The notes beneath the pieces are model-generated. The model saw only the letters and a list, made by a program, of their open reading frames with translations. It ran no database searches and was not told where the DNA came from. From NCBI GenBank assembly GCA_032718475.1, contig JAUCBJ010002135.1, forward strand, positions 1 through 36,111: 36,111 nt of DNA. The letters are read 5' to 3'. The position numbers and the translations under genes were made by a program. Shown here one piece after another: positions 1,919 to 32,770 of the stretch; position 1 is the first letter of the stretch, and each line of letters starts with the position of its first letter. The DNA comes from Nemertoderma westbladi. Its lineage: Eukaryota > Animalia > Xenacoelomorpha.

Positions 1919-3270
1919 CAAACTTAAACTAGAAAGTTTTTATGATGACTTCACAAATATCTGTAAGGATAACCTTCCCTCCGTGGTTGTACAAAAACGA
2001 GATGTTCCAAAGAAACCTTGGCTCACAAAATCGCTAATTTTAGGAATAAAAAAGAAAAACTTATTATACGCAATATATTCTAAATCGCCCACAACTGAAA
2101 ATCATAATCGTTACAAATTATACCGAAATAAATTAACCACACTACTTAGAGCAGCTGAAAAACAATACTACAACTCCGAATTCAATAAAAATTCTAATAA
2201 TATGCGTAAGACTTGAAAAACATTAAACTCTTTATTACACCGTTCTGAAAAAACATCAACACCAAAGAGACTAAACGTGGACAAAGACGGGAAAATTATT
2301 TCTCTCTCCAATCCAGCTGATATAGCCAACGCCTTTAACAATTTCTTTTCCAACATTGGTCCTCAACTTGCTTCACAATTTACTTCAAGTTCTCGTTGTC
2401 CTACTCGCCACGTAAGACATCCCAAATCCATTTCCTTCGGACTTTCAGAAACATCTCCCGCTGAAATTCATTACATCATTTTACAATTAGATGAGAAGTG
2501 CGCCTCCAATGACGATTTTCAGATTTCTTTAGTAAAGCTTGCGGCCCCGTTTATATCTACTCATTTATGTAGCTTGATTAATCCCAGTTTACGAGTAGGG
2601 CATTTTCCTGATTGTCATAAGTTAGCAAAGGTTATTCCTGCTTATAAGGGTGGTAACCCATTTTTTCCTACAAACTACCGTCCAATCTTCCTCCTCCCTG
2701 TTTTGCATAAAATTTTCGAAACAGTTTTATACAACCAGCTTATAACATACCTTAATAAATTCAATGTAATTTCGCGTAATCAATTCGGCTTCCGGAAAAA
2801 ATTCACCACATCATATGCAGTAATAAATATAGTGGAGTCAATTCGAAATGCTCTCGATAATCAGCAATCCTCTTGTTTAGTATATATAGACCTCCGTAAG
2901 GAATTTGATACTCTTGACCACTCCATCCTTATAAAGAAACTGCAGTCATATTGTATACGCGGAACCCCTCTGTCTATTTTCTCAGGTTACTTATCCAATC
3001 TCAAACAGTTTGTTTCATTAGGTGTTACGCCATCTTTAGTTAATTCAATCACCTGTGTGGTATCCCGCACTAGGCCCTATCCTTTTTTTACTTTATATAA
3101 ATGCTCTCCCAAATGCAACGTCCCTCATTACCACACTGTTTGCAGACGATACATCTCTCATGCTCCATAATAGTAACATAATCAGATTAACTAATACTAT
3201 AAATACCGAAAGTAATTTAATTAATGATTGGCTGATAGATAATAAATTAACCTTAAACACCGATAAAACA
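1919..3270 (+). pseudogene. LINE ORF2 reverse transcriptase, N-terminal part (stops and frameshifts)
   Basis: ORFs 1887..2216, 2277..3170 and 3055..3387 carry successive RT motifs and end at LTLNTDKT. Confidence 0.88.
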
Positions 3271-4129
3271 CGTTGTGGGGTCTTCGAGCAGCACGTGTTC
3301 AAATGTTCAATGACTGAGCAGCGACTAATTAACACATTTATGAGAGAATCATTGACCAGCTACCGACAGACCAATATTGTGACATAGTTTAATGTTTGAT
3401 TCAATTAGAGGCACAAATTAAAAAGGCTACAAATATATAAGGGTGAAGAATTAAATTAGTCACCCATTAAAAGGTAGCCAAATATAAGTTGCAATCTATA
3501 TAAATTGTTAAATTCAGTAGTGTGCGTGTGTATTGATTCCGTAGATTTCATGTTGAAATAGCGTTCATTAATTCAATTTCTAATTAATTATTCAGGCATA
3601 CTAATACACACATTAAATTAGTTCGTGTGTGTTAAGTGTGTAAGATTTTATTGTTTCGTCACGAAACCATTAGGGCACAGAAACTGACGGATTCTTCGCG
3701 AATTTCGCAAACGTCGCAAACTTCGGGAATTTTTTCTACAATTTTGACTCCTTAAGCAAAAGAGTCCCGAATGAGTTTTTTAACCTTTATTTTTTGTGAT
3801 TTTGAGTGCTTTTTTATATTAGTGAATGTTCTAGAACCTTAGTAGATTTTTTATGGTAGCTAGTATTTTTTACTATCTAGTAATTTTTGGAAATTATTTT
3901 GGTCATTAATATATTCTTCAACAGTTTAACCTGAAATATCATGGACTTTCACATTTTTTATAATTTCAAAAAATACTAGCTAGCAAAAAAACACTAGCTA
4001 TCATAAAAAACATAGCTACTAATGTTGTAGAACTTTCACCAATACCAAAAAAATTAAAAAACTCTAAAAAAGGATTGGTGAAAAATGGCTGGGGTGTCGA
4101 CAGGGCGAAGTAGGGACCGTGTTGCTTAA

Positions 4130-5286
4130 CCCCTTAGAGCCTATGACGTCCACTGCACGTCACAATGGACAGCACGAAGACGTGCAGTGCACGTCATGCT
4201 GGAATACATGTTTTATTAGAAGGCTCTTGGTCTAGGTATACTGGTGGATAGTATTAATGACATTTATTGCTCTTCGTGGCAAAAAATCCATTCTGTACTG
4301 TAGATAGGCTGTATTGTAGACTGTATTATTAGTGTTAGGTATATGGCGTAATGCCAACCACAGTGCAGTAGTTCAGACTGACAGAGAGACCGACAGACAG
4401 ACAGACTAGATTTATGTAAACGTGTAAACTGACACCAAAAAAGAAATCAGCAACCCTTAAAACCCCCATAACGAGAATGTTGGTTAGTTAGTATACTTTC
4501 TTAAGTTTTCACAGACTGACTGACAGAAAGACCGACAGCCAGACAGACTAGATTTTTTTAAACGTGAAAACTGACATCTGAAATAAAATTAGCACCCATT
4601 AAAACCCCATAACGAGAATGTTAGTTAGTTTGTATTCTTTTTTAAGTTTTGACAGACTGACTGACTGACAGAAAGACCGACAAACAGACAGACTAGATTT
4701 ATGTAAACCTGTAAACTGACATCAGAAATGAAATCAGCACCCCTTAAAACCCCCATAGCGAGAATGTTAGTTAATTTGAATTATCTTTTATGTTTTGACA
4801 GACTGACTGACAGAAAGACCGACAGACAGACAGACTAGATTTATGTAAACGTGAAAACTGACATCAGAAATGTAATCAACACTCTTAAAAACCCCCATAG
4901 CGAGAATGTTAGCGACAAGTTTTAATGATTAACCATATTTCGTAAGATATATTTTAAAACATTTATTTAATGCAATAACTGAATAACCAGATAACGGAAA
5001 GACAAACCGAATTGAAACTTTTAATTACTAATAATAATTGTGGTGAGAGGTGATGGAAATCAAGAATATATGTTATGTTATGGAGCACGCGTTGGTTGGC
5101 ACAGGCAAATGAATTGATGTCTGTTGAGATGTATTGAAGGAGCACTATTCCTTCTACTGGACTACTATGTCCTTGTGTACTAGCCTAGGCACTGGCTTGG
5201 TCAAAGACTTTAGCTTGCAGTAATGTAAAACTTCAAGAAATATTATTGGGCACGGCTGCCCTTGCCGTGCCTTAGGCTCTATGGGG
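4130..5286. mobile_element. piggyBac-like non-autonomous element (tentative)
   Basis: TTAA at 4126-4129 followed by CCCCTTAGAGCCTA; inverted match TAGGCTCTATGGGG at 5273-5286 with 1 mismatch. The right-hand TTAA is absent. Confidence 0.4.
4374..4910. repeat. Tandem array of four ~142-bp units with (CAGA)n tracts
   Basis: The CTAGATTT anchor recurs at about 4406, 4548, 4693 and 4835. A related core (aaactgacatcggaaatgaaatcaacgacccc) is at about 8879-8910. Confidence 0.9.
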
Positions 5287-7115: not shown

Positions 7116-7898
7116 TTACACCAACATAACTGCATTTATAACCCCGTCATTCTCAGGATTGTTTGTGACCTGGGCGTATTTACCCCAGACAACCTTCCCT
7201 CCTTGAGTCACTAGACCCAACTCGCTAACATTCACCTCCAGCACAGTTCCCTTGGTAACCACCCCCAATGAGGTGTAGAGAGAGGAACCGGGGTTCTTTT
7301 TAACCCCAATGATCGGCAGATAGAAGGTTGCCTTCAGTTCGGGGTGGGTGACGTGGGCCTTCTTAAATCGCAACGCCATTGGCCGAATAAAACGCTCGTA
7401 TTTCGGCGGTTTCCGTGTGAATCCATCACCCACGAACGTTACCTTGGTTACCATACGTTTCCATGACTTTTTCTTCCGTTTGCCGGTGGCTATCGCTCGG
7501 AATACTTCATCCTGACCTTGTGCCCGCACCTTTGGTATCGGTACGTCCCACTTACCGGCTTTCTCTTTACGTTTCTGTTTTATCATATTACTGAGAACCT
7601 TCCCTCGAGTCTGCCCCTCCCGATCAAGTAAATAGGCGGGAACCGCCCCCTCCGGACTTATCTTATCATTTTTCTTCCGAGTTTGTCTTTCCTCGTGCGC
7701 CTTTATAGTCTTTTTCATTTGCACTTTCTCTGAGTGTCTTTTTTTGTGCAGCAGTTTCGCTTTGAGGCCCCTGGCTTTCTTAGCTTCGATGGCGCGATCG
7801 TGGGGTTGGCGACTGAGTTTCTTACGCTTGCGTTCCTGGTAGTCGAGTCGGTAGCCATGGCGTTTACGGAACTCCTCAATATGTTCGTTCTGAGGCAT
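7116..7898 (-). CDS. NSA2: Ribosome biogenesis protein NSA2 (TINP1), full-length 260 aa, single coding exon
   Basis: Diagnostic termini MPQNEHIE...HGYRLDY and [21 protein letters not shown]; internal [27 protein letters not shown]; canonical length and intact frame. Confidence 0.98.
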
Positions 7899-10800
7899 CC
7901 TGAAAAGATCTACCGCGAATACAATTACAGCGTTCCTGTTCTGGTACTGCTGTACTGGTTTCTGGATTTACTGGTTTATCGTGAACAACTAGCAGCACAG
8001 TGATCCCAAATGACAGACAGGCAGCAGGACTGAAAGACCAAACCTGTAGCCACTACCTGACTACCGGCTGACCGGTACAATCCACAATACAGGTGCTTGC
8101 AGGCTTGTGTGTTGTGTGTGTACAGAACCGGAGAACGGCAGCTTACAATAACGATAAAGGTAGGCCTACCTACTTGTCTCTGCAGGGGACGCATATCATA
8201 TTGAGCATTGAGGTCAGCCTGGGGAAGTATTTCTGGGCTTCTAATTGGCTGTTCCATAAATAAGTTCACCTCATTCGTTAACACGCTCCGATAGCCAAAA
8301 GAAGTGTCTGTTCGGCCTAATAATAGCCAGAAGGAATAATCGGTTGGAGAAAATCAATTTTGTTACTTTTACATTTTACTTAACCCTTCTATTTAGCAGG
8401 TAGAATCACAATTATTTTGTCTAGGGGGCCTAATTCATTAAAGTTTGGTGTTATGTTACCATACCACACACACTTTATTGCAGGGTTTAATTAATTAACA
8501 AATACTACTGCCATACACATACTAAACGAATCTATGGGAAAGATAAAATTAGATTTATTTTTTTGAATTATTTTGATTTGAAAAAAATAATGTATACATC
8601 CGCAGTAATAAATATTTTATGGGAAAGTAAAAAAAACTGCGTTAGATGAGTTGTAGTTTGAATTTCGACAGAAATCATAAATCGTTTTGGGTGCCAGAGG
8701 CGACTGCTAGTGCGCTGCCTTTGTGTTTATTTATAATCACCATCTCTGCCACGTTCGCTGGGGAAGTGATTACTCCAAACAATTTAAGGGTGTTCGTCGT
8801 GTCTGTGAAATAAAATGATCTCCTTTAGTTCTCGTGTTATCGTGAAATATCTGTATCTATAGATTCCACCAAATATTAAAACTGACATCGGAAATGAAAT
8901 CAACGACCCCAAAAACTCCCAGAAATATAATTTTAGCTGGGTGGTGTGCTTTCATCCTGTTAGACTAATAAGGCAATAAGGCAATTTTGCGCGGGAAGGT
9001 TTGAACTTTGAAGGCAATTATCTCTGAATGTTTTTTTTTCACACGAAAAATAGCACTCCTCCTACTCTTAACCATTTTCGCAATTTTTTATTTATATGAA
9101 AAGTAATTTCATAAGCTTCAATAAATTTCGACCAGTTTTCTTGATTTCATGATATTTCCCCATTTTTTGTGAAAAATTAGAAAAACAACGGGTTTTTCAT
9201 TTTTTAAAAATAGTAACTTTTTTTTTACAAAATTGCAAAAAAAAAGAAAATGCAAATGCAAAAAGTGGTCGACAAATATGATGAAAATGCTGGTTCAAAA
9301 AAATGTGGTATCGAAAACTAAAATGAAAAATAACGGAGGATTAGCAAAAATTTTAAAATCTCACGCCAGCCGCTAGGGGGTGCTAGGGGGTTATGTTGAT
9401 GAAGTAGGACGCCGCCTTGTCGCAATGCGAGTTGAGTGGCGGTCGCCCTAAAATGTGAAGCCTATGGATGATATGATTATGAAGATGATCAGATCTATGC
9501 AACACCATCTGTTTATAAGCCCAAACTACACCTTCAGTCCGGCAGTGCAGTGCAGTACTGCAGTATGGCTGTATGGTGTATGCCATATGCAGGTCAGCAG
9601 GTATGGTTATGCAGTTATGGTATAGTCAGCCAGTCAGCATGCTGGCATGTAACAGCAGAACAGAGTAAGCCTAGACTACTGCCTGACTGCTGTACTGCAT
9701 TCCGTCATTCAGCACTGTCAGACTGTTGTGTCTGGCTGTAGGCTGCAAGGCTGGTAGGAGGCCAGTACCGAGTACTGCAGTAGGCAGGTTAGTAAACCTG
9801 TAACAGTCTGACAGTGTAAACAGTCTGACAGTAATGGAGCAGGCAGGCAGGTTAGGCCTACCCGTTACCAGTCAGCCAGTTACAGAGGCGAGTTGTGCCC
9901 TTCTGCCCTTCAACCGTTGTGCGTTGTGCAGTTGTGGGAACCGGAACCGGCTGAACGTAATGCTGTAATCAGGTAATGTCAATGTCAGTTAGGTACAATG
10001 CCCAAATCTGGCAATGATTGTGATTGCCATATTCAGATATTCGATAAATAAAAATAAAAAATAAAAAGATAAATCTGGCAACATTTCTGATTGCCTGATT
10101 TGGCAACTATATAAACCCGTTGTTGCTATATTTGGCAACTTAACTAACAGACTAACTCTTTGAATGTCTGAATATGGCTTCAGGGCTTATACTGTTATAC
10201 TGTTATAGGCCCTATAGTTCTGCATCATTAAGTCCTTCTATCAGCAGTCAGGGAGATCATCAATTTTGGGGTTACCCCAAATTTCGAATTCTGGTAATAG
10301 ACTGTCGAAAATTTGGGTTTTTTGTTCAAATTTGAGGTATTTTTAGGCTCATAATATCGAGTGTTGCTGCGACTTAGGGAAACTGTTGGAGCAACTTCTA
10401 CTTTTAATATGTGAAAATGGGGGACGTCTATTTACACCAAAAACACACAAAAACACACAAAAACACACAAAAACTCACAAAAACACACAAAAACGCACAA
10501 AAACACACAAAAACACACAAAAACATACGGCACATAAATGAAATGCCTGCAAACCTGATTCTGAACGATAATTAATTACAGAATTATCATTGTGGTTTGG
10601 ATTGTTGTCTGTTTGTATGCCTGTTTGTATGCATGTTTGTCTGTATGGTGTGGATGTACTTAATTGTAATCCAAAACGCAAATAAATTATTGCTGAAATA
10701 GGCATAGTCCAGTAGTCTACGCTCGCTACAGGTACCTTCAGTATAAATTAGATCATTGATGCCCTCGATCCTCTGTGGAATTCCCATAGAACATCACATT

Positions 10801-11680
10801 GTCTAGGCGGATGCATTGCGCTTATTCCATCTAAACATTACTAATGATTGTGATCAGGTTATGGTTGATATAAGTTGATGATGCCTTTGATAAATTGCGC
10901 AAACTGCGATTATTACAGTGGACAGTGGTTGCGTTTCCCCAACATCTCTTTCCAAGCTTGGTGAGAATAACTCTTCCGGGAAGAAAAATATACTCGATTT
11001 ATGACTACCATCATCCTGTCATCTGATACATCATATGTTGACGTCACAGTGAATTCTCCCTGAATCTGAAACTACAGTACAAGCTCGATTCATTCATACT
11101 TTATCATTATACACACTGTGTCTGTATTTCATATTCCCTATCCTATGCGTAATATTATTATATGATCATTATTATTATGGTGTCCGGATATTGCAAATAA
11201 TAATAATTGTGTAAAGAAATATTATACTGCATTTTTTTGTAAGAGTTGGGTCCAAAGGTGCCAAATTATGGTTGAATTGAATGGCCGTTGTAAAACTAAT
11301 TATTTGTTACATGCAGACATGGGAAAGCAAGACCAGTTATAAACCTCACTGCTTATATGTTCTAAGTTTTTTTTCCATATGTAATAGGTCTACGTAATTT
11401 TATTCTTAAATTGGTACTTCATTGTTGCTTAATTCTTTAATAAAAGATAGAGCGATTGCGATATTGTGTTACAAAATAAATTGAACTGTTTTTCACATAA
11501 ATATACTGTACAAGAGTAATAAACACTAATCTGCTAATAGTGCTACTTTTCATACAATAATGTAAATAGTTATTATAATTTGTGTGTTTTATATGTTTTT
11601 GTTTGTTTTTGTTTGTTTTTGTTTGTTTTGTTTGTTTTTATTTGTTTTTGTGTGTTTTTGTTTGTTTTTGTGTGTCTTTG

Positions 11681-16018: not shown

Positions 16019-16370
16019 TTAATTATCTATTTTTTCACAATTTTGGGAAATATATATTCCTTCCAGAAGCTACGACTACTTTTCAGTAAACTTTGCATGT
16101 ATATGGAATCATATGATACTTAACAACTATTTTCACTTCGCCATTTATTTCAAAAGATGGATCTGCGACGCTAAACAAGGCCAATTGTTTATTGCAAAGA
16201 AGCATTTGAAGTTGGATTTGTGACATGAATTTAGCGCTTACGATATTCGATTGTGTAAGATAAGATTTTTGAATGGCATGTTTTGATGTTGGACATTTTA
16301 CTTCTACCACATGCGTTGGTGTAATGGCATCTGAAATGGCATCAAAAAATAAGATTTTGTGGTATTTTAT
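16019..16370 (-). pseudogene. YqaJ / lambda-exonuclease-like (PD-(D/E)xK) domain fragment
   Basis: DAISDAI...VVEVKCP...QIQLQM...LFSVADPSFE, and after a frameshift FWKEYIFPKI. These match the SPDG / ExKCP / QxQxQ motifs of transposon-borne YqaJ proteins. Confidence 0.8.
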
Positions 16371-16765
16371 AAAAACACTAGCTACAATATTAAAACAGTA
16401 CATACCATTGAAAACACTAGCTATCACAAACATTTGTTTTTATTTTCTTTAAAACATTTTTTTTTTCACATGTAACTAGCCAAAATATGTCAAGAACATA
16501 AATCAATAGCCCAAAACATTATGTTTTGGTATTTTTTGGTATTTTGATATTTTTGGATGTCAAACCAAAAACAGCTATTATGAAAGGCAGGGATCTAGGG
16601 GTCTTAACCTCGAATGATAAGTTTTTATTTTACCGAAAATAACTTATCTTTTATTGGCGCAATTGTAGGACTAATCCCATCACATGTGTACTTTTTAACC
16701 GGGTAGTGTACAAATTTAGGAATCGCGTATTTTTTCTTGAAATTAATATCTCATATCTCTCCAAA

Positions 16766-16806
16766 CCACGTACGCGTTTCGACCTTACTGGGTCTCATCA
16801 GCGTGG
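16766..16806 (-). ncRNA. Type I hammerhead ribozyme (inverted copy)
   Basis: Exact reverse complement of the 17013-17053 motif. Confidence 0.85.
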
Positions 16807-16947
16807 TGTCGGATTCGAACCTGGGACCTCGAGGTGGAAGCCGAGACTACAACCACTAGGCCACAGGTCACATTGTTACTATCAATAATCAAAAATCAGG
16901 GGCTAATAAAATGGCAGCTGGCTTTGAAATTAATACTCCATATCTCA

Positions 16948-17012
16948 AGAACCTGTGGCCTAGTGGTTGTAGTCTCGGCTTCCACCTCGAGGTCCCAGGT
17001 TCGAATCCGACA
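16948..17012 (+). promoter_or_regulatory. tRNA-derived internal Pol III promoter (A box and B box), tRNA-Gly(TCC)-like; further copies at about 17360-17424 (plus) and 16807-16868 (minus)
   Basis: A box TGGCCTAGTGG at 16956-16966 and B box GGTTCGAATCC at 16998-17008 with tRNA spacing; anticodon-like loop CT-TCC-AC. There is no intact acceptor stem, so this is not a functional tRNA. Confidence 0.8.
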
Positions 17013-17053
17013 CCACGCTGATGAGACCCAGTAAGGTCGAAACGCGTACGTGG
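17013..17053 (+). ncRNA. Type I hammerhead ribozyme with minimal palindromic stem III
   Basis: CCACG-CTGATGA-GACC-CAGTAA-GGTC-GAAA-CGCG-TA-CGTGG: stem I CCACG/CGTGG, core CUGAUGA and GAAA, stem II GACC/GGTC. Predicted GUA cleavage after 17048. Confidence 0.9.
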
Positions 17054-17424
17054 TTTGGAGAGATATGAGATATTAATTTCAAGAAAAATTACGCGATTCC
17101 TAAATTTGTACACTACCCGGTTAAAAAGTACGCATGTGATGGGATTAGTCCTACAATTGCGCCAATAAAAGATAAGTTATTTTCGGTAAAATAAAAACTT
17201 ATCATTCGAGGTTAAGACCCCTAGATCCCTTCCTATAATAAATGTATAATAACAAACACCTCGAAAAATGCAGCTTGCCAACACATTGTTACTATCAATA
17301 ATAAAAAATCAGGGGCTAATAAATGGCAGCTGGCTTTGAAATTAATACTCCATATCTCAGGAACCTGTGGCCTAGTGGTTGTAGTATCGGCTTCTACCTC
17401 GAGGTCCCAGGTTCGAATCCGACA

Positions 17425-17465
17425 CCACGCTGATGAGATCCAGTAAGGTCGAAACACGTACGTGG
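17425..17465 (+). ncRNA. Type I hammerhead ribozyme (second direct copy)
   Basis: CCACG-CTGATGA-GATC-CAGTAA-GGTC-GAAA-CACG-TA-CGTGG. The stem II change keeps a U-G wobble pair. Predicted cleavage after 17460. Confidence 0.8.
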
Positions 17466-18289
17466 TTTTGAGAGATATAAGATATTAATTTCAAGAAAAT
17501 TACGCAATTCCTAAATTTGTACACTACCCGGTTAGAAATAGTACGCATGTGATGGGATTAGTCCTACAATTGCGCCAATAAAACATTCGAGGTTAAGACC
17601 CCTAGATCCCTTCCTATAATAAATGTATAATAACAAACACCTCGAAAAATACAGCTTGCCAATTGTTACTATCAATTATGAAAGGCAGAATAATGGTGAC
17701 ACGTGCAACACTAGTACCATTAACACTTTACAGTGAACTGACAAAAAATCTCAATAATTTCCATCTAGTGCTAATCTACCCATCCCGCATTGTTCGCTGT
17801 AAAAACAATTAAAAAATAGATTAATGAAACGCCTGGCAGTATTTAGCTAGCTATATTTATTTTTAGCTACACCTCTACGATACAGGTATGACCGAAATAA
17901 ATATTATTCTAGAATAATTAACTTGATATGAATAATTTGCCTCCATGCCGCTATCCTATAATCGATTCTTAACACAACACAAATACACATCCAAATAAAT
18001 ACATAGCTACATTCATTATTTGTTTTATTTTAGATACTGCAATATTATACTTTATATTAGCCAATCAACTGCGCTTGACAACTGTTGCTGTGTTATGGCT
18101 GACGTCACTCGTGCAGTTTTCTGAAACGGCCTGATTTTTCGATGTTGCTAATTTTGCGTTTTAAAATTGCTATAACTCGGCAAATATTAATTTTTTTGAA
18201 GTAAAATTGCTCTCTAGGGTTTTTTCACATGCTCTTTCACATGAAACCAACGAAAACTCGAAAAAAAATTTCCGAGTCGTCTACCCCAT

Positions 18290-18900
18290 TGTATGTTTTT
18301 GTGTGAATTGTATGTTTTTGTGTGTTTCTGTTTGTTTTTGTGTGTTTTTGTTTGTTTTTGTGTGTTTTGTTTCTTTATGTGTCTTTTGTTTGTTTTTGTG
18401 TGTTTTGTTTGCTTTTGTTTGTTTGTGTGTGTTTTTGTTTGTTTTTGTTTATTTGTGTTTGTTTTTGTGTTTTTGTTTGCTTTTGTTTGTTTGTGTGTGT
18501 TTTTGTTTATTTGTTTTCGTGTGTTTTTGTTTGTTTTTGTGTGTTTTTGTGTGTTTTCGTTTCTTTTTGTGTGTTTTGTATGTTTTTATTTGTTTTTGTG
18601 TGTTTTATTTGTTTTTGTGTGTTTTTGTGTGTTTTATTTGTTTTTGTTTGTTTTTGTGTGTTCTTGTGTGTTTTGTTTGTTTTTCTGTGTTTTGTATTGA
18701 CCCACTTCCCATTGATTTATCGACCTACTTTATCGGCCAATTTTACGAATATAATACTTATATTATATTTATATTATATTTATATTATATTTATATTATA
18801 TTTATATTATATTTATATTATATTATATTTATATTATATTATATTTATATTATATTATATTTATATTATATTATATTATATTTATATTATATTATACTAT
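18290..18900. repeat. Decamer (TGTGTTTTTG/TTTGTTTTTG) array followed by an (ATATT)n tract, left arm of the Foldback element
   Basis: Direct inspection; mirrored at 23385-24760. Confidence 0.95.
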
Positions 18901-19109
18901 ATAGAACTATCGCCTACCATGACCTATTATAAATACAACAGTAAGCTGCAGCAGCCCACTAAATTAGTGGGACGTTTGTACTTATAAACCGGTGGTCATT
19001 AGACCTACTCTTGGCCGCTGGCACTAAATTTGCTTAGTATTCTATAGAGATTCCAATAGAGATATTCTACGTATATTCTACTGTATAGAGATCTAGGACC
19101 ATCAGGACT

Positions 19110-19520
19110 CTGCCGCAACGACGGGGAGCGTGTAGACGGAGAGACACTTACTTGTGCCTTGGTCCCAGGGTTGACAGTGGTGTTTTACCCCCTTGCCCCT
19201 AGTCACTGCCAACAGACCCTAATTGCAGGGGGTCGTGCTGCAGGAGGAGCCGAGTAGGGGAAGAACATGACGTATGTAGAGGTGGTGGATCAGGGGCATA
19301 TATTCCACCCTTTTGCGTTCAAGACGCAAGACCCTCGGCCGCCCCGGTCCGGAGACATCCTCCAGGAGATCGGGTCCCATCTCCATACCGTGACGCATGA
19401 GCCACGCTCCCACAGGTCCCTACTTCAGCGCATCGTCGTGGCCATTCTGGTGGGCAATGCGGCGTCTGTCCTGGCACTGCCTGCCCATCCCCGGGTTGAC
19501 TCTTTGGGGATTAGTCTCTA
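19110..19520 (+). pseudogene. 3' fragment of an RLE-type (CRE-like) non-LTR retrotransposon, restriction-like endonuclease region
   Basis: Degenerate VPWSQG, F-PFAF-T, L-EIG--L--VT-EPRS---LLQR--VA---GNAASVL, matching the CRE-clade C-terminus. GC-rich island inside an AT-rich arm. Confidence 0.7.
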
Positions 19521-20593
19521 GTATTTATATCTTCTATGTTGACAAAGTTTGTGACAAATGTATGTTTTATAAACTCATGTATAAATTTATGACAATATTG
19601 TATTTTTTAATATACAGTATGAAAATATTAATATGTAAATATAAATACGATAATTACTCTTATCCATTGTTTGCCTCGTTGCGTTCGTCCTGTTTAGTCT
19701 TAAAGTATTATATTTGTAATATGTTAGCCACCGACGAGAATCGAAATTAATAATAATTAAAAATAGTGTATATTGCTCGACATACTCTACATATACTGTA
19801 TAAAGGGTACAGGCATTGATTCTAATTTGCGTCCAGTTCCCCCCCCCCCCCCCCCCCCCCCCCTGCCACGATCCAACAGGGACACCGACACAGGGTAGGA
19901 GACCAACCGTATTATCTACGAAGCTCTTTAGTGCACGTCGCAATCCACTGACAGCCTAGATTAAAGTCTTTATATCCCGGTGGGAATTAGAGTGTCGAAT
20001 AGAAATACATTTGATTTACTTGCTACGACCGGATGATCAATGGACCTCGGAATACGAGCTAAGAGTATGGATTGTCGGTGTCGCTCTCCTCAACGATTAC
20101 CAATATGGGACGCAAATTGTCAATTAGGGTGTCGTTTTAGCCTTCTCGTTGGGTCAATGTTAAATTAATATTGAACAATTAGTGTCTAGAAGTATAAATT
20201 TTACTGTAAACTGTGTTCCTAAATTTAGTTTATTGTTTTGGTTTGAAAAGCCTGCCATTATAACCTGCTACTTTCCTTTAAAAGGTACCTAAATTGTGAA
20301 TATCGAAATTAAAATATGTTAAAATAGGCTGAGACGACACCCCAATTGTTAATATGCATACGGGACATATTTGCTAATAATTGTAATCGTAATACTGTAG
20401 TTAGAGAAAATTCAACATACAGTAAAAATTATATTACATATTAAGAGACTCTTATTATTTTTGTTAAAGCCTTTGTGTCCTAAAATACGCATTTTATTCC
20501 CACTAAACTCTGTCCCCTACTCCACACGCCCCGCCGTGTCCGGTTCTGGTATACACCTAAAGTAATCAACCATTAAAAGCTATTTTTCAACAG

Positions 20594-21499
20594 AGCTTTT
20601 ATTGGTTGTTGACCAGCAACGAGCAACCGGGGACGGCACCACAGATAGTATTCGGGGAGACGATGCCCGAGAGGGGCGGAGAGATCGACGTAGACAGGGA
20701 GACCAACGTAGAGAAGTTCGCCTACCAGCGACTCCACAGACCGCGGAGATCGCTTGGGACGAAAGACGAGGTGGGACGGGAGACATTGGTACTCGGCTGC
20801 GACTACTGTGGGAGACAGACCCATCGGGAAAGCAGCTGCCTATACCGGTTCCAACAGGGAACCTTTTGTCTCTACTGCAGAGAACCAAGCCACAGGATGG
20901 GGGCGTGTCCACGGTTGCATAACCGATGTCCAAAGTGCCACTTTCGGGGACACTACGGACGCGAGTGCGACTGGATGAACGACGAGGAGAAGTTCACGAG
21001 ATTCGAGGAGTGGGCCGACGTCGGGGCCATGACGCGCCAGCGCATGAAGGCCCAGGAGTTCAAGTGGGGTTTCTTCCTTATCAATCAGGAGACTCACATG
21101 GAAATCATAAAGCGGAGGCTACCGTTTACCTACCAAGAGGTAGCAACGGCGGCGTCGTACGCTGGAGTGATGAACACGCAAAGGTATCTGGACAGGTGGA
21201 CGCCAGAGAACCGAAGGGAGTTTAGGGATTTCTTGGCGGAGCACGTACCAAAGGCAATGAAAATGATCCTATGGGACGCCACTAGAGGGAGACAACCGGG
21301 CCATTCTGAGGGGCCACCGGCGAAGCGATATCGGGCACTAATAACACCAGCGCCCAAGGAGCCAACGACCGGGATCAGCAAGGAAGTGGCGGCGAAGGTC
21401 CGAAAGCAGAAAGCGGATGATGCCAGAGGAACGGTGATAACCAAGAAACGACCCAGGGAAGAGGACGCCAGGGGGAACTACCCCCGGAGGAACAGATAG
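20594..21499 (+). CDS. Triple CCHC zinc-knuckle protein, probably retroelement-encoded; 5' end uncertain
   Basis: Three exact C-X2-C-X4-H-X4-C motifs: CDYCGRQTHRESSC, CLYCREPSHRMGAC, CPKCHFRGHYGREC. About 300 open GC-rich codons. In-frame acceptor-like tttttcaacag ends at 20593; first ATG at 20663. Confidence 0.7.
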   Translation, partial: SFYWLLTSNEQPGTAPQIVFGETMPERGGEIDVDRETNVEKFAYQRLHRPRRSLGTKDEVGRETLVLGCDYCGRQTHRESSCLYRFQQGTFCLYCREPSHRMGACPRLHNRCPKCHFRGHYGRECDWMNDEEKFTRFEEWADVGAMTRQRMKAQEFKWGFFLINQETHMEIIKRRLPFTYQEVATAASYAGVMNTQRYLDRWTPENRREFRDFLAEHVPKAMKMILWDATRGRQPGHSEGPPAKRYRALITPAPKEPTTGISKEVAAKVRKQKADDARGTVITKKRPREEDARGNYPRRNR

Positions 21500-22208: not shown

Positions 22209-22747
22209 TGTTAGCTTATTCAATCCCGCTAACACCCCATAAAGTTATAAGCCGATAAGCAATATTGGGAGCCACGAGATTGGATAATTAACCAACTCGT
22301 GCCATCCCAATAAGAGTGGGAAGGAAGCACACAATAGAGGGTCAGGGGCCAAACCCCTAACCCAGAGAGAATAGGTGGAGTGAACGGGAACACTCCAAAG
22401 GGCGCCAACAAGGGTATCAACCAATCAGAGGGGGGCAAGGCATCGATTAGGTAGTAATCAGGCCAACCGTGCAATATAACCAGTAACCCAGTAATCAGTA
22501 CATTCAGTTATCTCAGTGCAGTACCGGTGCTAGCTTAGGTTAATTAGTTTTAGATAGGGGAGCACCGGGACTTTTAGTTACCGTATCCCGCCTTCCATAT
22601 ACTATACATACTATATCTATATCTTATACCTCATATTATTATACACCGAACATCAGAACTCATTGAACTTCATTCACTCTTTATACACGGCGGGGACGCG
22701 TGAACTAAATACCGGATAAATCGGGATCCCTCCTGGATCCCGTCACA
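22209..22747 (+). mobile_element. Probable 3' LTR (TGT...ACA, 539 bp) preceded by a polypurine tract
   Basis: GGGGGGGAG at 22200-22208 directly precedes TGTTAG. The segment ends GTCACA exactly where the Foldback right arm begins. A hairpin atgctatcttc/gaagatagcat lies just before the tract. No second LTR is present. Confidence 0.5.
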
Positions 22748-22764
22748 ATAGAAGATATAAATAC

Positions 22765-23175
22765 AAGAGACTAATCCCCAAAGAGTCAACCCGGGGATGG
22801 GCAAGCAGTCGCCAGGACAGACGCCGCATTGCCCACCAGAATGGCCACGACGATGCGCTGAAGTAGGGACCTGTGGGAGCGTGGCTCATGCGTCACGGTA
22901 TGGAGATGGGACCCGATCTCCTGGAGGATGTCTCCGGACCGGGGCGGCCGAGGGTCTTGCGTCTTGAACGCAAAAGGGTGGAATATATGCCCCTGATCCA
23001 CCACCTCTACATACGTCATGTTCTTCCCCTACTCGGCTCCTCCTGCAGCACGACCCCCTGCAATTAGGGTCTGTTGGCAGTGACTAGGGGCAAGGGGGTA
23101 AAACACCACTGTCAACCCTGGGACCAAGGCACAAGTAAGTGTCTCTCCGTCTACACGCTCCCCGTCGTTGCGGCA
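22765..23175 (-). pseudogene. Mirror copy of the CRE-like endonuclease fragment in the right Foldback arm
   Basis: ORF 22786..23019 gives essentially the same peptide as 19267..19521. Confidence 0.7.
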
Positions 23176-23384
23176 GAGTCCTGATGGTCCTAGATCTCTA
23201 TACAGTAGAATATACGTAGAATATCTCTATTGGAATCTCTATAGAATACTAAGCAAATTTAGTGCCAGCGGCCAAGAGTAGGTCTAATGACCACCGGTTT
23301 ATAAGTACAAACGTCCCACTAATTTAGTGGGCTGCTGCAGCTTACTGTTGTATTTATAATAGGTCATGGTAGGCGATAGTTCTA

Positions 23385-24760
23385 TATAGTATAATATAAA
23401 TATAATATAATATAATTATAAATATAATATAAATATAATATAATATAAATATAATATAATATAAATATAATATAATATATAATATAATATAAATATAATA
23501 TAAATAATATAAGTATTATATTCGTAAAATTGGCCGATAAAGTAGGTCGATAAATCAATGGGAAGTGGGTCAATACAAAACACAGAAAAACAAACAAAAC
23601 ACACAAGAACACACAAAAACAAACAAAAACAAATAAAACACACAAAAACAAACAAAAACACACAAAAACAAATAAAACACACAAAAACAAATAAAAACAT
23701 ACAAAACACACAAAAAGAAACGTAAACACACAAAAACACACAAAAACAAACAAAAACACACAAAAACAAATAAACAAAAACACACACAAACAAACAAAAG
23801 CAAACAAAAACACAAAAACAAACACAAATAAACAAAAACAAACAAAAACACACACAAACAAACAAAAGCAAACAAAACACACAAAAACAAACAAAAGACA
23901 CATAAAGAAACAAAACACACTAAAACAAACAAAAACACACAAAAACAAACAGAAACACACAAAAACATACAATTCACACAAAAACACACAAAAACATACA
24001 ATTCACACAAAAACACACAAAACAAACAAAAACACACAAAACACACACAAAAACACACAAAAACAAACAAAGACACACAAAAACAAACAAAGACACACAA
24101 AAACAAACAAAAACACACAAAAACAAACAAAGACACACAAAAACAAACAAAAACACACAAAAACAAATAAAAACAAACAAAACAAACAAAAACAAACAAA
24201 ACATGTAGAAAGAAACAAAACACACAAAAACAAACAAAAACACACAAAAACAAACAATTCACACAAAAACACACAAAAACATACAATTCACACAAAAACA
24301 CACAAAACAAACAAAAACACACAAAAACAAACAAAGACACACAAAAACAAACAAAAACACACAAAAACAAATAAAAACAAACAAAACAAACAAAAACAAA
24401 CAAAACATGTAGAAAGAAACAAAACACACAAAAACAAACAAAAACACACAAAAACATACAATTCACACAAAAACATACAATTCACACAAAAACACACAAA
24501 ACACACAAAAACACACACAAACAACACACAAAAACACACAAAAACAAACAAAGACACACAAAAACAAACAAAGACACACAAAAACAAACAAAAACACACA
24601 AAAACAAACAAAGACACACAAAAACAAACAAAAACACACAAAAACAAATAAAAACAAACAAAACAAACAAAAACAAACAAAACATGTAGAAAGAAACAAA
24701 ACACACAAAAACAAACAAAAACACACAAAAACAAACAAAAACATATAAAACACACAAATT
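23385..24760. repeat. (AATAT)n tract and expanded decamer (CAAAAACACA/CAAAAACAAA) array, right arm of the Foldback element
   Basis: Direct inspection; includes higher-order duplications marked by acatgtagaaag at about 24201, 24405 and 24682. Confidence 0.95.
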
Positions 24761-26280
24761 ATAATAACTATTTACATTATTGTATGAAAAGTAGCACTAT
24801 TAGTGTTTATTACTCTTGTACAGTATATTTATGTGAAAAACAGTTCAATTTATTTTGTAACACAATATCGCAATCGCTCTATCTTTTATTAAAGAATTAA
24901 GCAACAATGAAGTACCAATTTAAGAATAAAATTACGTAGACCTATTACATATGGAAAAAAAACTTAGAACATATAAGCAGTGAGGTTTATAACTGGTCTT
25001 GCTTTCCCATGTCTGCATGTAACAAATAATTAGTTTTACAACGGCCATTCAATTCAACCATAATTTGGCACCTTTGGACCCAACTCTTACAAAAAAATGC
25101 AGTATAATATTTCTTTACACAATTATTATTATTTGCAATATCCGGACACCATAATAATATTACGCATAGGATAGGGAATATGAAATACAGACACAGTGTG
25201 TATAATGATAAAGTATGAATGAATCGAGCTAGTACTGTAGTTTCAGATTCAGGGAGAATTCACTGTGACGTCAACATATGATGTATCAGATGACAGGATG
25301 ATGGTAGTCATAAATCGAGTATATTTTTCTTCCCGGAAGAGTTATTCTCACCAAGCTTGGAAAGAGATGTTGGGGAAACGCAACCACTGTCCATGTAATA
25401 ATCGCAGTTTGCGCAATTTATCAAAGGCATCATCAACTTATATCAACCATAACCTGATCACAATCATTAGTAATGTTTAGATGGAATAAGCGCAATGCAT
25501 CCGCCTAGACAATGTGATGTTCTATGGGAATTCCACAGAGGATCGAGGGCATCAATGATCTAATTTATACTGAAGGTACCTGTAGCGAGCGTAGACTACT
25601 GGACTATGCCTATTTCAGCAATAATTATTTGCGTTTTGGATTACAATTAAGTACATCCACACCATACAGACAAACATGCATACAAACAGGCATACAAACA
25701 GACAACAACCCAAACCACAATGATAATTCTGTAATTAATTATCGTTCAGATTCAGGTTTGCAGGCATTTCATTTATGTGCCGTATGATTTTGTGTGTTTT
25801 TGTGTGTTTTTGTGCGTTTTTGTGTGTTTTTGTGAGTTTTTGTGTGTTTTTGTGTGTTTTTGGTGTAAATAGACGTCCCCGTGAAAATGTAAAATAAGAA
25901 CTTTTATCGATGCAATAAAATATTTCACCGATGCAAACATGCTTTTATTGGGGGCGAAAATTGAAATTTGAGGTTAAACCTCAAATTTGAGACAAAACCT
26001 CAAATTTCGCCAGCCTTTACAACATCCTGACATCACCAGCCTGTCAGCAGTAGGGTGTAGCAGTAGGCTTTGCTGCTTAGTGCTTATAGAGCTTGGTGAG
26101 AATGGGTGACCAGTGAACCTGTGACATGACATGTATGCAGGGTAGGCTTAACCTTACAGCACAGTAACTTACAGTCAATAACTTTAATGATTGTTAACTC
26201 CGTTAGTGATTGGTGAGAAAAAATGCAGAAGACTAGAGAAATTCGCTATCCTTACAGCCTTACTGTTGGTAAGAAGAACA

Positions 26281-29399: not shown

Positions 29400-31520
29400 A
29401 GTCATCAGAAAGAACTGATGACTTTATGAAGAGATATGAAGAGGAGCATTGTGAGGACAGCTCCCTGTGGACACCGATGTCGCATGGGCGTGTCGAGGAG
29501 GTAGTATTACCAATCTGGACAAATTGACTACGGTTTGATAAGTAGGATTCGAACCATGCTAATGCAGTTTGAGAGAATCGAGGTTCCTGTCGACTGTGTC
29601 GAAGGCTTTTTGGAAGTCAATTGCAATCATTCCATCATAGTTTCCATTTTTCATAGCATCTTTGATAAAGTTATCGAGGAATAATGCACATGTTTGTACG
29701 GAGTAACCAGGTCTAAATCCAGATTGGAAATTGTCAAGGATGTTGTTGGTGATATAATATTTCATTAATTGGTCGAATATAACCTTTTCGAGGACTTTTG
29801 AGATAATCTGTAGGAGGGCTATTGGTCTAAAATTTGTTCTTTGGGTTGTGTTTTTACTTTTGTGGATGGGTGTCACCTTTGCCAGTTTGAAGATTAGTGG
29901 GAAAACTGAGTTGTCTATTGAGAGGTTTATGATTTTGGTTATGTATACCGAGAGGAAGTCGGAGCCATCACGGAATCTGATGGGTGGTATGTTGTCCGGG
30001 CCACAGCTTTTACATGTGTCTAAGTTATTTAGAATACCTGTTATGGTTTCTTGGTCTATTGGGGATAGAGAAAAAGCATTGGCTTTGATTCCTCTTAGGG
30101 TGTAGAAATGTTCTACTTGCGTCCGATAGGTTTTGTCTGCTGGGGCTGGGGGTAGCTGGTCTACTAGCTCCTTGGCAATGGTTGTGTAGTATTTGTTGAA
30201 TTCATCAGCAACTGTGGGGGCATCGTGTATCTTTGTTTCTCCAACTTGTAGCATTGGGATGTTGGTGCAGGTTTTTTGTTTTCGTGATGGTGCCCCGAGG
30301 CATTTTAAAGTTTTCCATAGCTGTTTACTGTTACCTTTGTTTGATTCTAGTTTTATGCTGAAATAGTTTGCCTTTACTGATTTTATTTGGGCTGTGAGTT
30401 GGTTACGGAGCTTTTTGTATTCAGAGTAATTATTCGGAGTGCGGTTATTATGGAATCTCTCCAATGCCTTGCGTCTAGTAGGGCTCGATCGGAGTTGGGA
30501 TTTGGCCGGAGCCGGAGCAGGAGCCGGAGTTGGACAGTTTGGCCGGAGCCGGAGCCGGAGTTTTTCAAAAATTTTAAAAATTTAATTATTTATTTAAAAA
30601 AAATAAAGTATGGTTATCGTTCGCCAATCGCTCAAAATCAATCATACTGTAGGTCTAATTAATTTCATAATTTATAGATTTACGAATTTTCAATTTAAAA
30701 TTTAAGTAATTAATTTATCACGGACAGACGGCCTGGCCTGACGTGACGGCTAAAAATTACCTACAATTAGGGCTCGATCGGAGTTGGGATTTGGCCGGAG
30801 CCGGAGCAGGAGCCGGAGTTGGACAATTTGGCCGACAATCTGACGCTGACGGCGACGGACTGATGCTGACGGCGACGGCCTGACGCTGACGGCTAAAAAT
30901 TACCTACAGTACCTAACTCGCTGTCTAACTGTGGTAGAGGTGTGTACTGTAGGTAGCCTACCGTACGTGTACCAGTACTGCAGTACAGTACAGCAGTATG
31001 CTGGCATGACAGCAGTAAATGGCTGCAGACGTACAGTCTGACAGTGTACAATCATAGCATTTACAATTTTTTAAAGTAGGGCCTATCTGTAACAGTCTGC
31101 TAGTCAGCCAGCTGGCCAGTACCAGTACTGCAGTACAGTCAGTCAGTCATTGACTTTAAGTAAATACTGCAGTATTATCAGATTATACTTGATATTGAAG
31201 CTGTACTACAGTACTTATAGTGTTAAATAATTGTTCAGATTAGAATATGCACGAAATATAATACTTTATTAAAAAATTAACTCCGGCAATATTTTTACCG
31301 GAGCCGGAGCAGGAGCCGGAGGTGCCAAAATGGCCGGAGCCGGAGCCGGAGGCCGGAGCTCCGATCGAGCCCTAGCGTCTAGCTTGTATATGTATAGTAT
31401 TTGTAATGGAGCTAGTGATCCAGGGTTCTGTGAGAGTATTGAATCGTATTTCTTTGATAGGTGCGATGGTTGATTGTTATGACTACTCGTTGTGAGGGTG
31501 GTCATTTTACCCAAGAAGGT
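29400..31520 (-). mobile_element. Degraded LINE ORF2 fragment (CR1/L2/Jockey group RT), split by a hAT MITE
   Basis: ORF 29559..30464 has GPDNIP, FKLAKVTPIHK, NFRPIALL, QSGFRPG and IDFQKAFDTVD. A PQG-like motif lies near 29470, and EPWIT continues beyond the MITE at about 31410-31430. Confidence 0.85.
30479..31374. mobile_element. hAT-family MITE
   Basis: TIR TAGGGCTCGATCGGAG / CTCCGATCGAGCCCTA, 8-bp TSD GCGTCTAG at 30471-30478 and 31375-31382, GCCGGA subterminal repeats, and a second internal copy of the left end at about 30768-30833. Confidence 0.92.
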
Positions 31521-32770
31521 AAATTATCCTCCTTGATTTAAACTACATGCAGACATGTAATGTAAGAAAACTGCAATACTAAACTGCTAAATGTACAGGC
31601 CAATACAATGATGTAATGTCCTCAAAAGTTGTAAAGTGCTAAATATCAACTCGCTGTTAATACTAACGGCGGTTGAGTAATGTTACAATTTTGGAATAAA
31701 GATATTATTACCCGTTAGAATAGCATCCCCAACAAGTTATATATACTTTGTGTTAGTACAGTAGTAGTAGACTAGTAGGCCTAGAATTAGGATTGTTCGA
31801 AGTTCGAGCAATCCTTAATGTGGATTTTGTACAACAGAGTATTAATGAATTGAATTTGTTACAGAAATAGCATCGAGTCATACGAAATGCAATACTTTTA
31901 TAATAGATACAAATCCAGCATTTTACAGTTTTATATGTTCTTCCAATTCATGGCAAATCAGCTGTTTTTTATTCCATATAATCAACGCGTTCATTTCAGT
32001 AGATTTGGTTTAAGTTCCCGTTGTTTCCGAATAGATATGCTTGTGTATCTACTCTAGTAGTGCTCGTGTATATATATCAGTGTGAAGTGTGACGGCGGTA
32101 CATGGAATTTAATGTATTATTAAAATGTCCAAAAACTGTTGAATTGATAAATAAATATAATATAGATAGGGTGTAACAAACTACCGGTACCAGACTTTAT
32201 GGGCAATTTTTTTTCCACCATTGTCAGATTGTGATTGTGAAGGCCAGTGTTATAACTGAATGCCTGCAGTGTTTTGAGTGATTATATACTTTTAATTGAA
32301 TAATTGATTATTCCTGACTATTGTGCTTTATTTACTTTACTTCATTGTTTATTAATTTATGAAATCATTATTAGCCTGATTTGGTGAAAATTGTGAAATG
32401 TTAAAAATAAATATCAAACATAGTCAATAAACATATAGGCAATAGGCCTATATGGAAATGGTGCAAGAGTGTCATCCCGAAGGACTTTGGATTTATCTGT
32501 GTCACTATTAGCAGTGGACTGGACTGGACACCCGTGTGTGGTGTGGTTGTGGAACCATCATGCGAGGTGCGACATAGTAGGCCATGGTCAGAGTGTTAAG
32601 ATAGATATACTGACTGACCAGACCACAGATTTACACGGATTGGGTATAGGTCAAGCAGGCTACCCAATTGCTTTTGATCTAGGCTAGGCCCACAACTACT
32701 CATTAACTCATTTTGTATTTCTGCTGTTTATTTCATACCGTGAAGTTATCTCGATAATAATATATGTATT

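What the first reader, a model, noticed from the sequence alone, without database searches (positions are those of the whole stretch)
16591..17674. tRNA-promoter plus hammerhead ribozyme retroelement (retrozyme-like) with inverted and tandem units and a 14-bp TSD
Seen directly: each ~412-bp unit has Pol III A and B boxes running straight into a complete type I hammerhead (CUGAUGA / GAAA / GUA, stems I-III). There are three copies, one inverted and two direct. A 14-bp TSD flanks the insert and it has no coding capacity. Established: minimal hammerheads with a tiny palindromic stem III occur in Penelope-like element pLTRs and animal non-LTR retrozymes, schistosome SM-alpha combines a tRNA-type promoter with a hammerhead, and inverted 5' copies are typical of Penelope insertions. 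Inference: this is a self-transcribing, self-cleaving non-autonomous family mobilised by a Penelope-like RT. Cleavage after 17048 and 17460 would release a 412-nt monomer that could circularise. I cannot tell whether this family is already described.
Basis: partly seen in the sequence, partly recalled or inferred. Interest (0 to 1): 0.87.

Follow-up and report, generated by a model that had tools for sequence, protein, structure and literature searches.

The report
tRNA-promoter hammerhead jumping element, Penelope-style
This is one insertion of a young, abundant, non-coding jumping repeat of an animal that carries a tRNA-type promoter motif fused to a predicted self-cutting ribozyme, a design already known from blood flukes; its ends suggest that it likely borrows a Penelope-type enzyme and that this copy was likely made from an uncut multi-unit RNA rather than from one RNA circle.

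Summary
Observation confirmed, with corrections. Between a 14-bp TSD lie an inverted partial unit (278 bp), a full unit (413 bp), a decayed unit (380 bp) and 13 bp of a fourth. Empty sites exist in other contigs. Each of the three copies has A/B boxes and a type I hammerhead, canonical rather than pLTR-minimal (0 hits in 300 shuffles). Contigs of three DNA runs show a homogeneous high-copy family with head-to-tail joints, about 320 partly matching contigs in each of the two deeper runs, and 3' ends in two zones about 60 nt apart. The two ends of this insertion fall one in each zone, and the TSD starts with ATT. That matches the Penelope 'tail' signature. The three units are unequally diverged, which argues against copying one monomer circle, and the inverted arm stops at the tRNA head. 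The best reading is an Sm-alpha-like, Pol III-driven non-LTR retrozyme moved by a Penelope-like enzyme. Cleavage, transcription, circles and the partner were not shown. It is a new member of a known kind, in a host that is not a schistosome. The scan noted this design before on other DNA (e1-9924037).

The parts
16577..16590 (.). Left copy of 14-bp target-site duplication (begins with ATT)
   Evidence: empty site
16591..16868 (-). Inverted partial unit (278 bp), equal to 16951-17228 with 2 substitutions; starts 2 nt inside the tRNA-like head
16765..16807 (-). Hammerhead of the inverted copy (predicted cut after 16771); A box 16853-16863, B box 16811-16821
16869..17281 (+). Direct unit 1 (413 bp, 39.5% GC), close to the family's majority sequence
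16924..17082 (+). Long predicted stem (16924-16946 with 17060-17082) that extends helix I and encloses the tRNA-like head and the ribozyme
   Evidence: I8; z -5.2
16949..17011 (+). tRNA-like head: A box 16956-16966, B box 16998-17008, 31 nt apart; predicted to fold as a hairpin, not a cloverleaf
   Evidence: not detected by ARAGORN or Rfam
17012..17054 (+). Canonical type I hammerhead, predicted cut after GUA at 17048; begins 3 nt after the B box
   Evidence: helix I pair probabilities 0.76-0.97, helix II 0.99-1.0
17171..17202 (+). AU-rich hairpin holding the only T4 run of unit 1 (17180-17183), a possible leaky Pol III stop; deleted in unit 2
17229..17308 (+). 'Tail' zone: family 3' ends cluster at 17238-17251 and 17302-17308; 66% A+C
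17282..17661 (+). Direct unit 2 (380 bp), decayed; A box 17368-17378, B box 17410-17420, hammerhead 17424-17466 (predicted cut after 17460)
17662..17674 (+). 13 bp from the start of a further unit; the insertion's right end
   Evidence: (D8)
17675..17688 (.). Right copy of the 14-bp TSD

Best explanation
This is one insertion, with a 14-bp target duplication, of a young high-copy non-coding repeat whose 413-bp unit joins tRNA-type A/B boxes to a type I hammerhead motif; it is likely transcribed by Pol III, predicted to self-cleave, and likely copied into new sites by a Penelope-like reverse transcriptase/endonuclease. Proposed cycle. (1, inferred) Pol III starts at the tRNA-like head of a unit in a tandem array and often reads through the single T4 run. 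(2, predicted) Some transcripts self-cleave at GUA into 412-nt monomers that may be ligated into circles, as in other animal retrozymes. (3, inferred) A Penelope-like enzyme makes a staggered cut at AT-rich DNA and starts cDNA synthesis from both cut strands, at two internal sites about 60-70 nt apart; short target-RNA pairing likely sets the exact start. (4, shown as anatomy) The product is an inverted 5' arm ending in the first zone plus a direct tandem ending in the second zone. This copy was likely made from an uncleaved multi-unit RNA that began at the tRNA head, not from a single monomer circle.
For: Motifs far above chance. True TSD with empty sites. Depth about flat over the whole unit; only 3 (X3) and 4 (X1) substitution sites at 5% or more; head-to-tail joints present; 323 of 1449 and 317 of 3671 laid contigs only partly on the unit. 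8 of the 12 loose-end rows shown for X3 and X1 are 3' ends in two zones (27 and 34 contigs) with unrelated AT-rich flanks, agreement 0.44-0.68. This insertion's two ends fall one in each zone and the TSD begins with ATT. PMC11167929 (parts 1-2 read) reports for a purified Penelope-like protein: cleavage at ATT on both strands, extension of both strands, two internal start sites that define the genomic 'tail', and unprocessed RNA as the main template. Inverted 5' copy and one-sided tail are described for PLE insertions (PMC8557442 passages). Junction likeness to the target: 7 of 9 at the right end (best of 413 positions), 5 of 6 at the left (top 2 of 413) (lengths chosen after looking). Unequal private changes 2:0:7. 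The 32-bp deletion of unit 2 is seen at depth 117 in X1 against 15-31 for the long contigs listed, so such units may exist elsewhere. The inverted arm ends at 16951, and the tRNA-equivalent +1 is 16949.
Against: No partner element was found: no whole genome is held, and no GIY-YIG match appeared among 141 window frames scanned. No cluster of 5' ends at the tRNA head appears among the 18 of 470 loose-end rows shown. Other inversion joints lie at other positions; only one shown row (X3 16857->17152) ends near the head. A T4 run is conserved in the unit (no variant at 5% or more), unit 2 has another at 17466, and T runs are not depleted beyond composition (P=0.56), so Pol III read-through is assumed. 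The head does not fold as a tRNA and is not found by ARAGORN or Rfam. The published tail is 30-40 bp with non-homologous initiation, against about 60-70 nt with microhomology here. Helix III is only 2 bp over a 2-nt loop, and the unit1/unit2 dimer helix is weak (-2.6 against -7.5 kcal/mol). In the 2026 preprint 8 of 9 predicted retrozyme dimers did not cleave in vitro. Likeness of the two inverted arms could also come from fold-back copying or gene conversion.
Confidence: 0.72

Rival explanations
1. Same element and same partner, but insertions are copied from RNA circles by rolling-circle reverse transcription; unit differences come from template switching between circles or from later mutation.
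For: This is the published model for non-LTR retrozymes (PMC7229834 Discussion). The circularised unit folds well (z -3.8) with the ribozyme open. cDNA starts inside the monomer and crosses cut sites.
Against: Private changes 2:0:7, plus 3 indels in unit 2 (p 0.025 and 0.0016). The inverted arm stops at the tRNA head, which a circle gives no reason for. PMC11167929 finds unprocessed RNA to be the main template. The closed 441-nt contig of run X4 (411+30) fits a circle and a DNA tandem equally.
Confidence: 0.14
2. The unit is the pseudo-LTR of an autonomous Penelope-like element, and these are heavily truncated copies rather than an independent family.
For: PLE-type ends and inversion. Retrozymes are related to pLTRs (bioRxiv 10.64898/2026.07.22.740005, parts 1-3 read). 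Only the best-supported rows of the contig tables are visible.
Against: Nearly three units abut with no ORF between them. Head-to-tail joints and flat depth. No long shared 5' extension among the rows shown. Canonical rather than minimal hammerhead (PMC4209133). Intact Pol III boxes.
Confidence: 0.07
3. A tRNA-derived SINE moved by an APE-type LINE, with the inversion made by L1-like twin priming.
For: Microhomology at both junctions and an inversion with a 53-bp gap. LINE-type RT remnants at 2217-3387 and 29559-30581. Twin priming is recalled, not from a call.
Against: No poly(A) or microsatellite tail. Two fixed internal 3' zones shared across the family. Head-to-tail multimers and a hammerhead. 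No likeness to the unit elsewhere in the window.
Confidence: 0.04
4. A satellite that spreads at the DNA level (rolling-circle or recombination), with ribozyme and boxes as passengers.
For: Most depth runs across the head-to-tail joint, so many units sit in arrays.
Against: TSD, inverted arm, strand-specific fixed 3' ends, and listed ribozyme-core variants under 0.5% in X1 and X3.
Confidence: 0.03

Closest known systems
Sm-alpha / Sj-alpha SINE-like hammerhead retroposons of Schistosoma (passages in PMC6765202, PMC2770079, PMC8490949; Ferbeyre 1998 not held)
   Same: tRNA-derived Pol III promoter followed by a type I hammerhead, tandem units of a few hundred bp, thousands of copies, no ORF, promoter lying at the 3' end of the cleaved monomer.
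   Different: Host is not a schistosome (window NSA2 best hit 82%; 0 of 43 species-labelled rows among the best 120 are flatworms). Unit 413 bp against 335 bp. GUA triplet here (GUC in Sm-alpha is recalled). Sequence homology not tested. The passages read do not give a Penelope-type end signature for Sm-alpha.
Metazoan non-LTR retrozymes (PMC7229834, parts 2-4 read; PMC7761336 passages; bioRxiv 10.64898/2026.07.22.740005, parts 1-3 of 5)
   Same: 150-450-bp tandem units with a canonical type I hammerhead, GC under 50%, TSD longer than 4 bp, no ORF, strong predicted fold, proposed PLE partner.
   Different: PMC7761336 says retrozymes seem to carry no promoter; this one has intact A/B boxes. Circular RNA not shown here, and this insertion does not look like a copy of one circle.
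EN+ Penelope-like elements, e.g. Poseidon of Anolis (PMC11167929, parts 1-2; PMC8557442 passages; PMC4209133 parts 1-2)
   Same: Partial tandems, inverted 5' copy, tail at one end only, two start sites, ATT at the target, hammerhead copied uncut.
   Different: No RT/GIY-YIG ORF; canonical not minimal hammerhead; tail about 60-70 nt rather than 30-40; junction microhomology.
Helenus/Ajax/Cassandra TRIMs (PMC10886601, passages)
   Same: Non-autonomous elements with a Pol III small-RNA-derived sequence inside the repeated unit.
   Different: Those are LTR elements with PBS/PPT and an internal region, and the passages show no ribozyme in them.

Membership tests
Metazoan non-LTR retrozymes | Tandem units of 150-450 bp each with a type I hammerhead | tested here: met
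Metazoan non-LTR retrozymes | No coding capacity, no internal region between LTRs, GC under 50% | tested here: met
   longest ATG frame 36 aa, units abut, GC 39.5%; PBS/PPT not searched for separately
Metazoan non-LTR retrozymes | Dispersed copies, TSD longer than 4 bp | tested here: met
   14-bp TSD with empty sites; about 320 partly matching contigs in each of X1 and X3; TSDs at other loci not visible
Metazoan non-LTR retrozymes | Self-cleavage | not testable with these tools
   fold prediction only
Metazoan non-LTR retrozymes | Expressed as monomeric circular RNA | tested here: inconclusive
   only contigs were available; the closed contig in X4 fits a circle or a DNA tandem
Sm-alpha / Sj-alpha | tRNA-derived A/B boxes directly ahead of a hammerhead | tested here: met
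Sm-alpha / Sj-alpha | Pol III transcription | not testable with these tools
   boxes intact in 3 of 3 copies; one T4 inside unit 1
Sm-alpha / Sj-alpha | Schistosome host | tested here: not met
   works like Sm-alpha but is not filed as a member
Sm-alpha / Sj-alpha | Sequence homology to Sm-alpha | not tested
Autonomous EN+ Penelope-like element | RT + GIY-YIG ORF between pLTRs | tested here: not met
   no ORF in the insert; no GIY-YIG match in 141 window frames
PLE-mobilised elements | Two 3' end positions (tail), inverted 5' copy, AT-rich/ATT target | tested here: met
   spacing about 60-70 nt, longer than the 30-40 bp described
PLE-mobilised elements | A partner PLE in the genome sharing the terminal segment | not testable with these tools
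   no genome held
Classical LINE-mobilised tRNA SINE | Monomer starting at the tRNA head and ending in an A-rich or simple-repeat tail | tested here: not met
   permuted tandems, internal fixed ends, depth flat on both sides of the head

The most novel reading that the evidence does not exclude
Sm-alpha-type elements are a wider class of Penelope-borne SINEs: a tRNA-derived Pol III promoter fused onto a hammerhead, possibly more than once in animals. Their new insertions are copied from uncleaved, Pol III-initiated multimers primed at two fixed sites with microhomology, so the ribozyme and any RNA circles are not the integration intermediate. This young family records its templates in single insertions and would let the circle-versus-multimer question be settled from genome sequence alone.
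Probability: 0.35. Interest if true: 0.68.

Novelty: new member of a known kind. Interest (0 to 1): 0.46.

Why it matters
Two points about animal retrozymes are open in the papers read: which enzyme moves them, and whether circles are the template. This family shows the two-site end signature established biochemically for a Penelope-like protein, and one insertion whose unequal units argue against a single circle. It also carries its own promoter motif, which a review says retrozymes seem to lack, and extends the schistosome design to another animal. The family is young and homogeneous, so it suits cleavage, Pol III and mobilisation assays. The design itself is known, which caps the interest.

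Tried and rejected
No whole genome was held, so no genome-wide BLAST, TSD census or partner search was possible. Sequencing runs: no RNA holder listed; all laid runs were contigs. Summed contig depth (about 0.5-0.8 million in X1 against 15-31 for long single contigs) is not a copy number; I take only 'hundreds of loci, likely thousands of units' from it. Long high-depth contigs in X5 looked like a possible partner, but the same variants have depth 20-41 in X1 and X3, so this was dropped. The B-box-to-hammerhead pattern gave 0 hits in viral contigs, 4 in metagenome contigs and 2 in prokaryote genomes; 0 of 6 form helix I or II or resemble the unit. T-run depletion was not significant. The predicted 5' end cluster at the tRNA head was not seen among the rows shown. 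The parent tRNA could not be assigned. The host could not be placed beyond 'animal, no flatworm among labelled hits'. Eight literature searches found no paper on a tRNA-promoter hammerhead repeat outside Schistosoma. Repbase, Dfam, SINEBase and most subscription journals were not searchable, Ferbeyre 1998 and Lunse 2017 were not held, and no supplements were read; these could hold the family or similar ones.

Full report
Anatomy. The insert lies between two identical 14-mers (16577-16590, 17675-17688), the only copies in the window. From left to right it holds an inverted 278-bp piece equal to 16951-17228 with 2 substitutions, a 413-bp unit (16869-17281), a 380-bp unit with a 32-bp deletion (17282-17661) and 13 bp of a further unit. 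No other copy lies in the window. The longest ATG frame of the circularised monomer is 36 aa, and 0 of 8 frames over the insert match Pfam.

Motifs. Each of the three long pieces has an A box and a B box 31 nt apart. Three nucleotides later comes a hammerhead with helix I of 6 bp, helix II of 4 bp with a 6-nt loop, intact core, palindromic CGCG and a GUA triplet. A stem-checked descriptor and the box pair each give 3 hits and 0 in 300 shuffles; the box consensus is recalled. Rfam gives Hammerhead_HH9 at 26.6 bits, under its cut-off of 52, for 2 of 3 copies. By PMC4209133 (parts 1-2 read) this is the canonical metazoan type I motif, not the min-HHR of most pLTRs. Helices I and II form with probabilities 0.76-1.0 in the nascent RNA and in the circle, and a 23-bp stem extends helix I (z -5.2 and -3.8). 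The tRNA-like head is predicted to fold as a hairpin; ARAGORN and Rfam do not call a tRNA. Unit 2 has lost the palindrome, and its dimer helix with unit 1 is weak. Cleavage is a prediction.

Family. No genome was held, so I laid contigs of public runs. The TSD is real: X3 has a contig joining 16590 to 17687, and 5 X1 contigs continue from 17675 into the left-flank sequence. The target is itself a moderately repeated element with a weak YqaJ-like remnant. On one unit, 1449 (X3), 3671 (X1) and 82 (X5) contigs were laid, of which 323, 317 and 28 fit only in part. Depth is about flat along the unit and head-to-tail joints are present. Only 3-4 substitution sites reach 5% in X3 and X1, and the listed ribozyme-core variants stay under 0.5%. 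So the family is young, abundant and mostly intact; summed depth is not a copy number. Of 470 loose-end rows 18 were shown. Of the 12 for X3 and X1, 8 are 3' ends in two zones, 17238-17251 (27 contigs) and 17302-17308 (34 contigs), with unrelated AT-rich flanks. X1 and X3 carry the same organism label and may share loci. No long shared 5' extension was among the rows shown.

Mobilising enzyme (inferred). The left end of this insertion extends by microhomology to 17241 and the right end to about 17299-17306, one in each zone, and the TSD begins with ATT. PMC11167929 (parts 1-2 of 4 read) shows for a purified Penelope-like protein: cutting at ATT on both strands, extension of both, two internal start sites that bound the genomic 'tail', and unprocessed RNA as main template. 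PMC8557442 (passages) describes the inverted 5' copy and one-sided tail. Differences: the spacing here is about 60-70 nt, not 30-40, and both junctions resemble the target (7 of 9, best of 413 positions; 5 of 6, top 2 of 413; lengths chosen after looking), whereas the in vitro start was non-homologous. No partner was found; 141 of the window's frames were scanned with no GIY-YIG match (158 frames of 55 aa or more passed the complexity filter).

Template (inferred). In the span shared by all three pieces the private substitutions are 2, 0 and 7, and unit 2 has 3 private indels. Equal divergence from one template is unlikely (p 0.025, or 0.0016 with indels). The 32-bp deletion shows at depth 117 in X1 against 15-31 for the long contigs listed, but not in the X3 rows shown. 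The inverted arm stops at 16951, 2 nt inside the tRNA-equivalent start. The simplest account is one uncleaved RNA that began at a tRNA head, ran through nearly three more units of a mixed array, and was primed from both cut strands, losing 53 bp at the inversion. Against this: no 5' cluster at the head was among the rows shown, other inversion joints lie elsewhere, and the RNA must pass T4 runs at 17180 and 17466. Template switching between circles, fold-back copying or conversion between the arms are not excluded.

Expression. No RNA holder was listed. One contig in X4 is exactly a 411-nt unit plus a 30-nt overlap. It fits a circle or a DNA tandem equally and is not used as evidence.

Host. 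The window is animal (NSA2, CHD3/4-type gene, LINE remnants). NSA2's best hit is 82% identical and 0 of 43 species-labelled rows among the best 120 are flatworms, so the host is not a schistosome; I could not place it further.

Comparison. Sm-alpha and Sj-alpha combine a tRNA-derived Pol III promoter with a hammerhead in tandem units (passages of PMC6765202, PMC2770079, PMC8490949). Non-LTR retrozymes are 150-450-bp hammerhead tandems expressed as circles (PMC7229834, parts 2-4) and were linked to PLEs in bioRxiv 10.64898/2026.07.22.740005 (parts 1-3 of 5), where 8 of 9 tested dimers did not cleave. PMC7761336 (passages) says retrozymes seem to lack promoters. This element meets the testable retrozyme features and works like Sm-alpha without being filed as a member. 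Eight searches found no paper on this design outside schistosomes, but repeat databases, subscription journals and supplements were not seen. Scan notes (unchecked) report the same design in another animal (e1-9924037) and ribozyme-free tRNA-headed Penelope-borne tandems (e1-8147901, e1-8148089, e1-9541180); no look-alike of this sequence was indexed. Pattern scans of viral, metagenome and prokaryote collections gave 0, 4 and 2 hits, none a hammerhead.

Verdict. The feature is real and well supported as a young non-autonomous retroelement. It is a new member of a known kind. Its added value is the family-wide Penelope-type end signature and the hint that the template was an uncut multimer. Interest 0.46.

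Noticed in passing
window 16083-16439 (-) and flanks to about 18140: The insertion target is a multi-copy element with a weak YqaJ/lambda-exonuclease-like remnant (Pfam E 0.0015, below cut-off); probably a decayed DNA transposon.
   Followed up: partly
window 7116-7967 (-): Intronless NSA2 reading frame of 260 aa, at most 82% identical to any database protein; gene or retrocopy, host without close annotated relatives.
   Followed up: partly
window 32744-34561 (+), 34485-36111: 605-aa uninterrupted CHD3/4 (Mi-2)-type frame (CHDNT, two PHD fingers) that runs straight into a 41-bp satellite of about 40 copies.
   Followed up: no
window 10420-11678 with 24660-25880; 18289-19543 with 22742-23991: Two pairs of about 1.26-kb inverted repeats (96-97% identical), nested around a 312-aa Cys/His-rich frame at 20561-21499 without a Pfam match; possibly a large element with long terminal inverted repeats.
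   Followed up: no
window 1842-3387 (+), 29559-30581 (-): Broken LINE-type reverse transcriptase remnants.
   Followed up: no
window 4376-4912; 1-411: 142-bp tandem of 3.8 copies with GACA microsatellite, and a 22-bp minisatellite of about 19 copies.
   Followed up: no
window 17193-17194: About half of family depth (45-55% in X3 and X1) lacks 2 nt here, in the 3' arm of the T4-containing hairpin; two subfamilies of 411 and 413 nt.
   Followed up: partly
window 17008-17011 and 17055-17058: The end of the B box doubles as the predicted distal stem of hammerhead helix I, so promoter and ribozyme overlap in sequence.
   Followed up: partly
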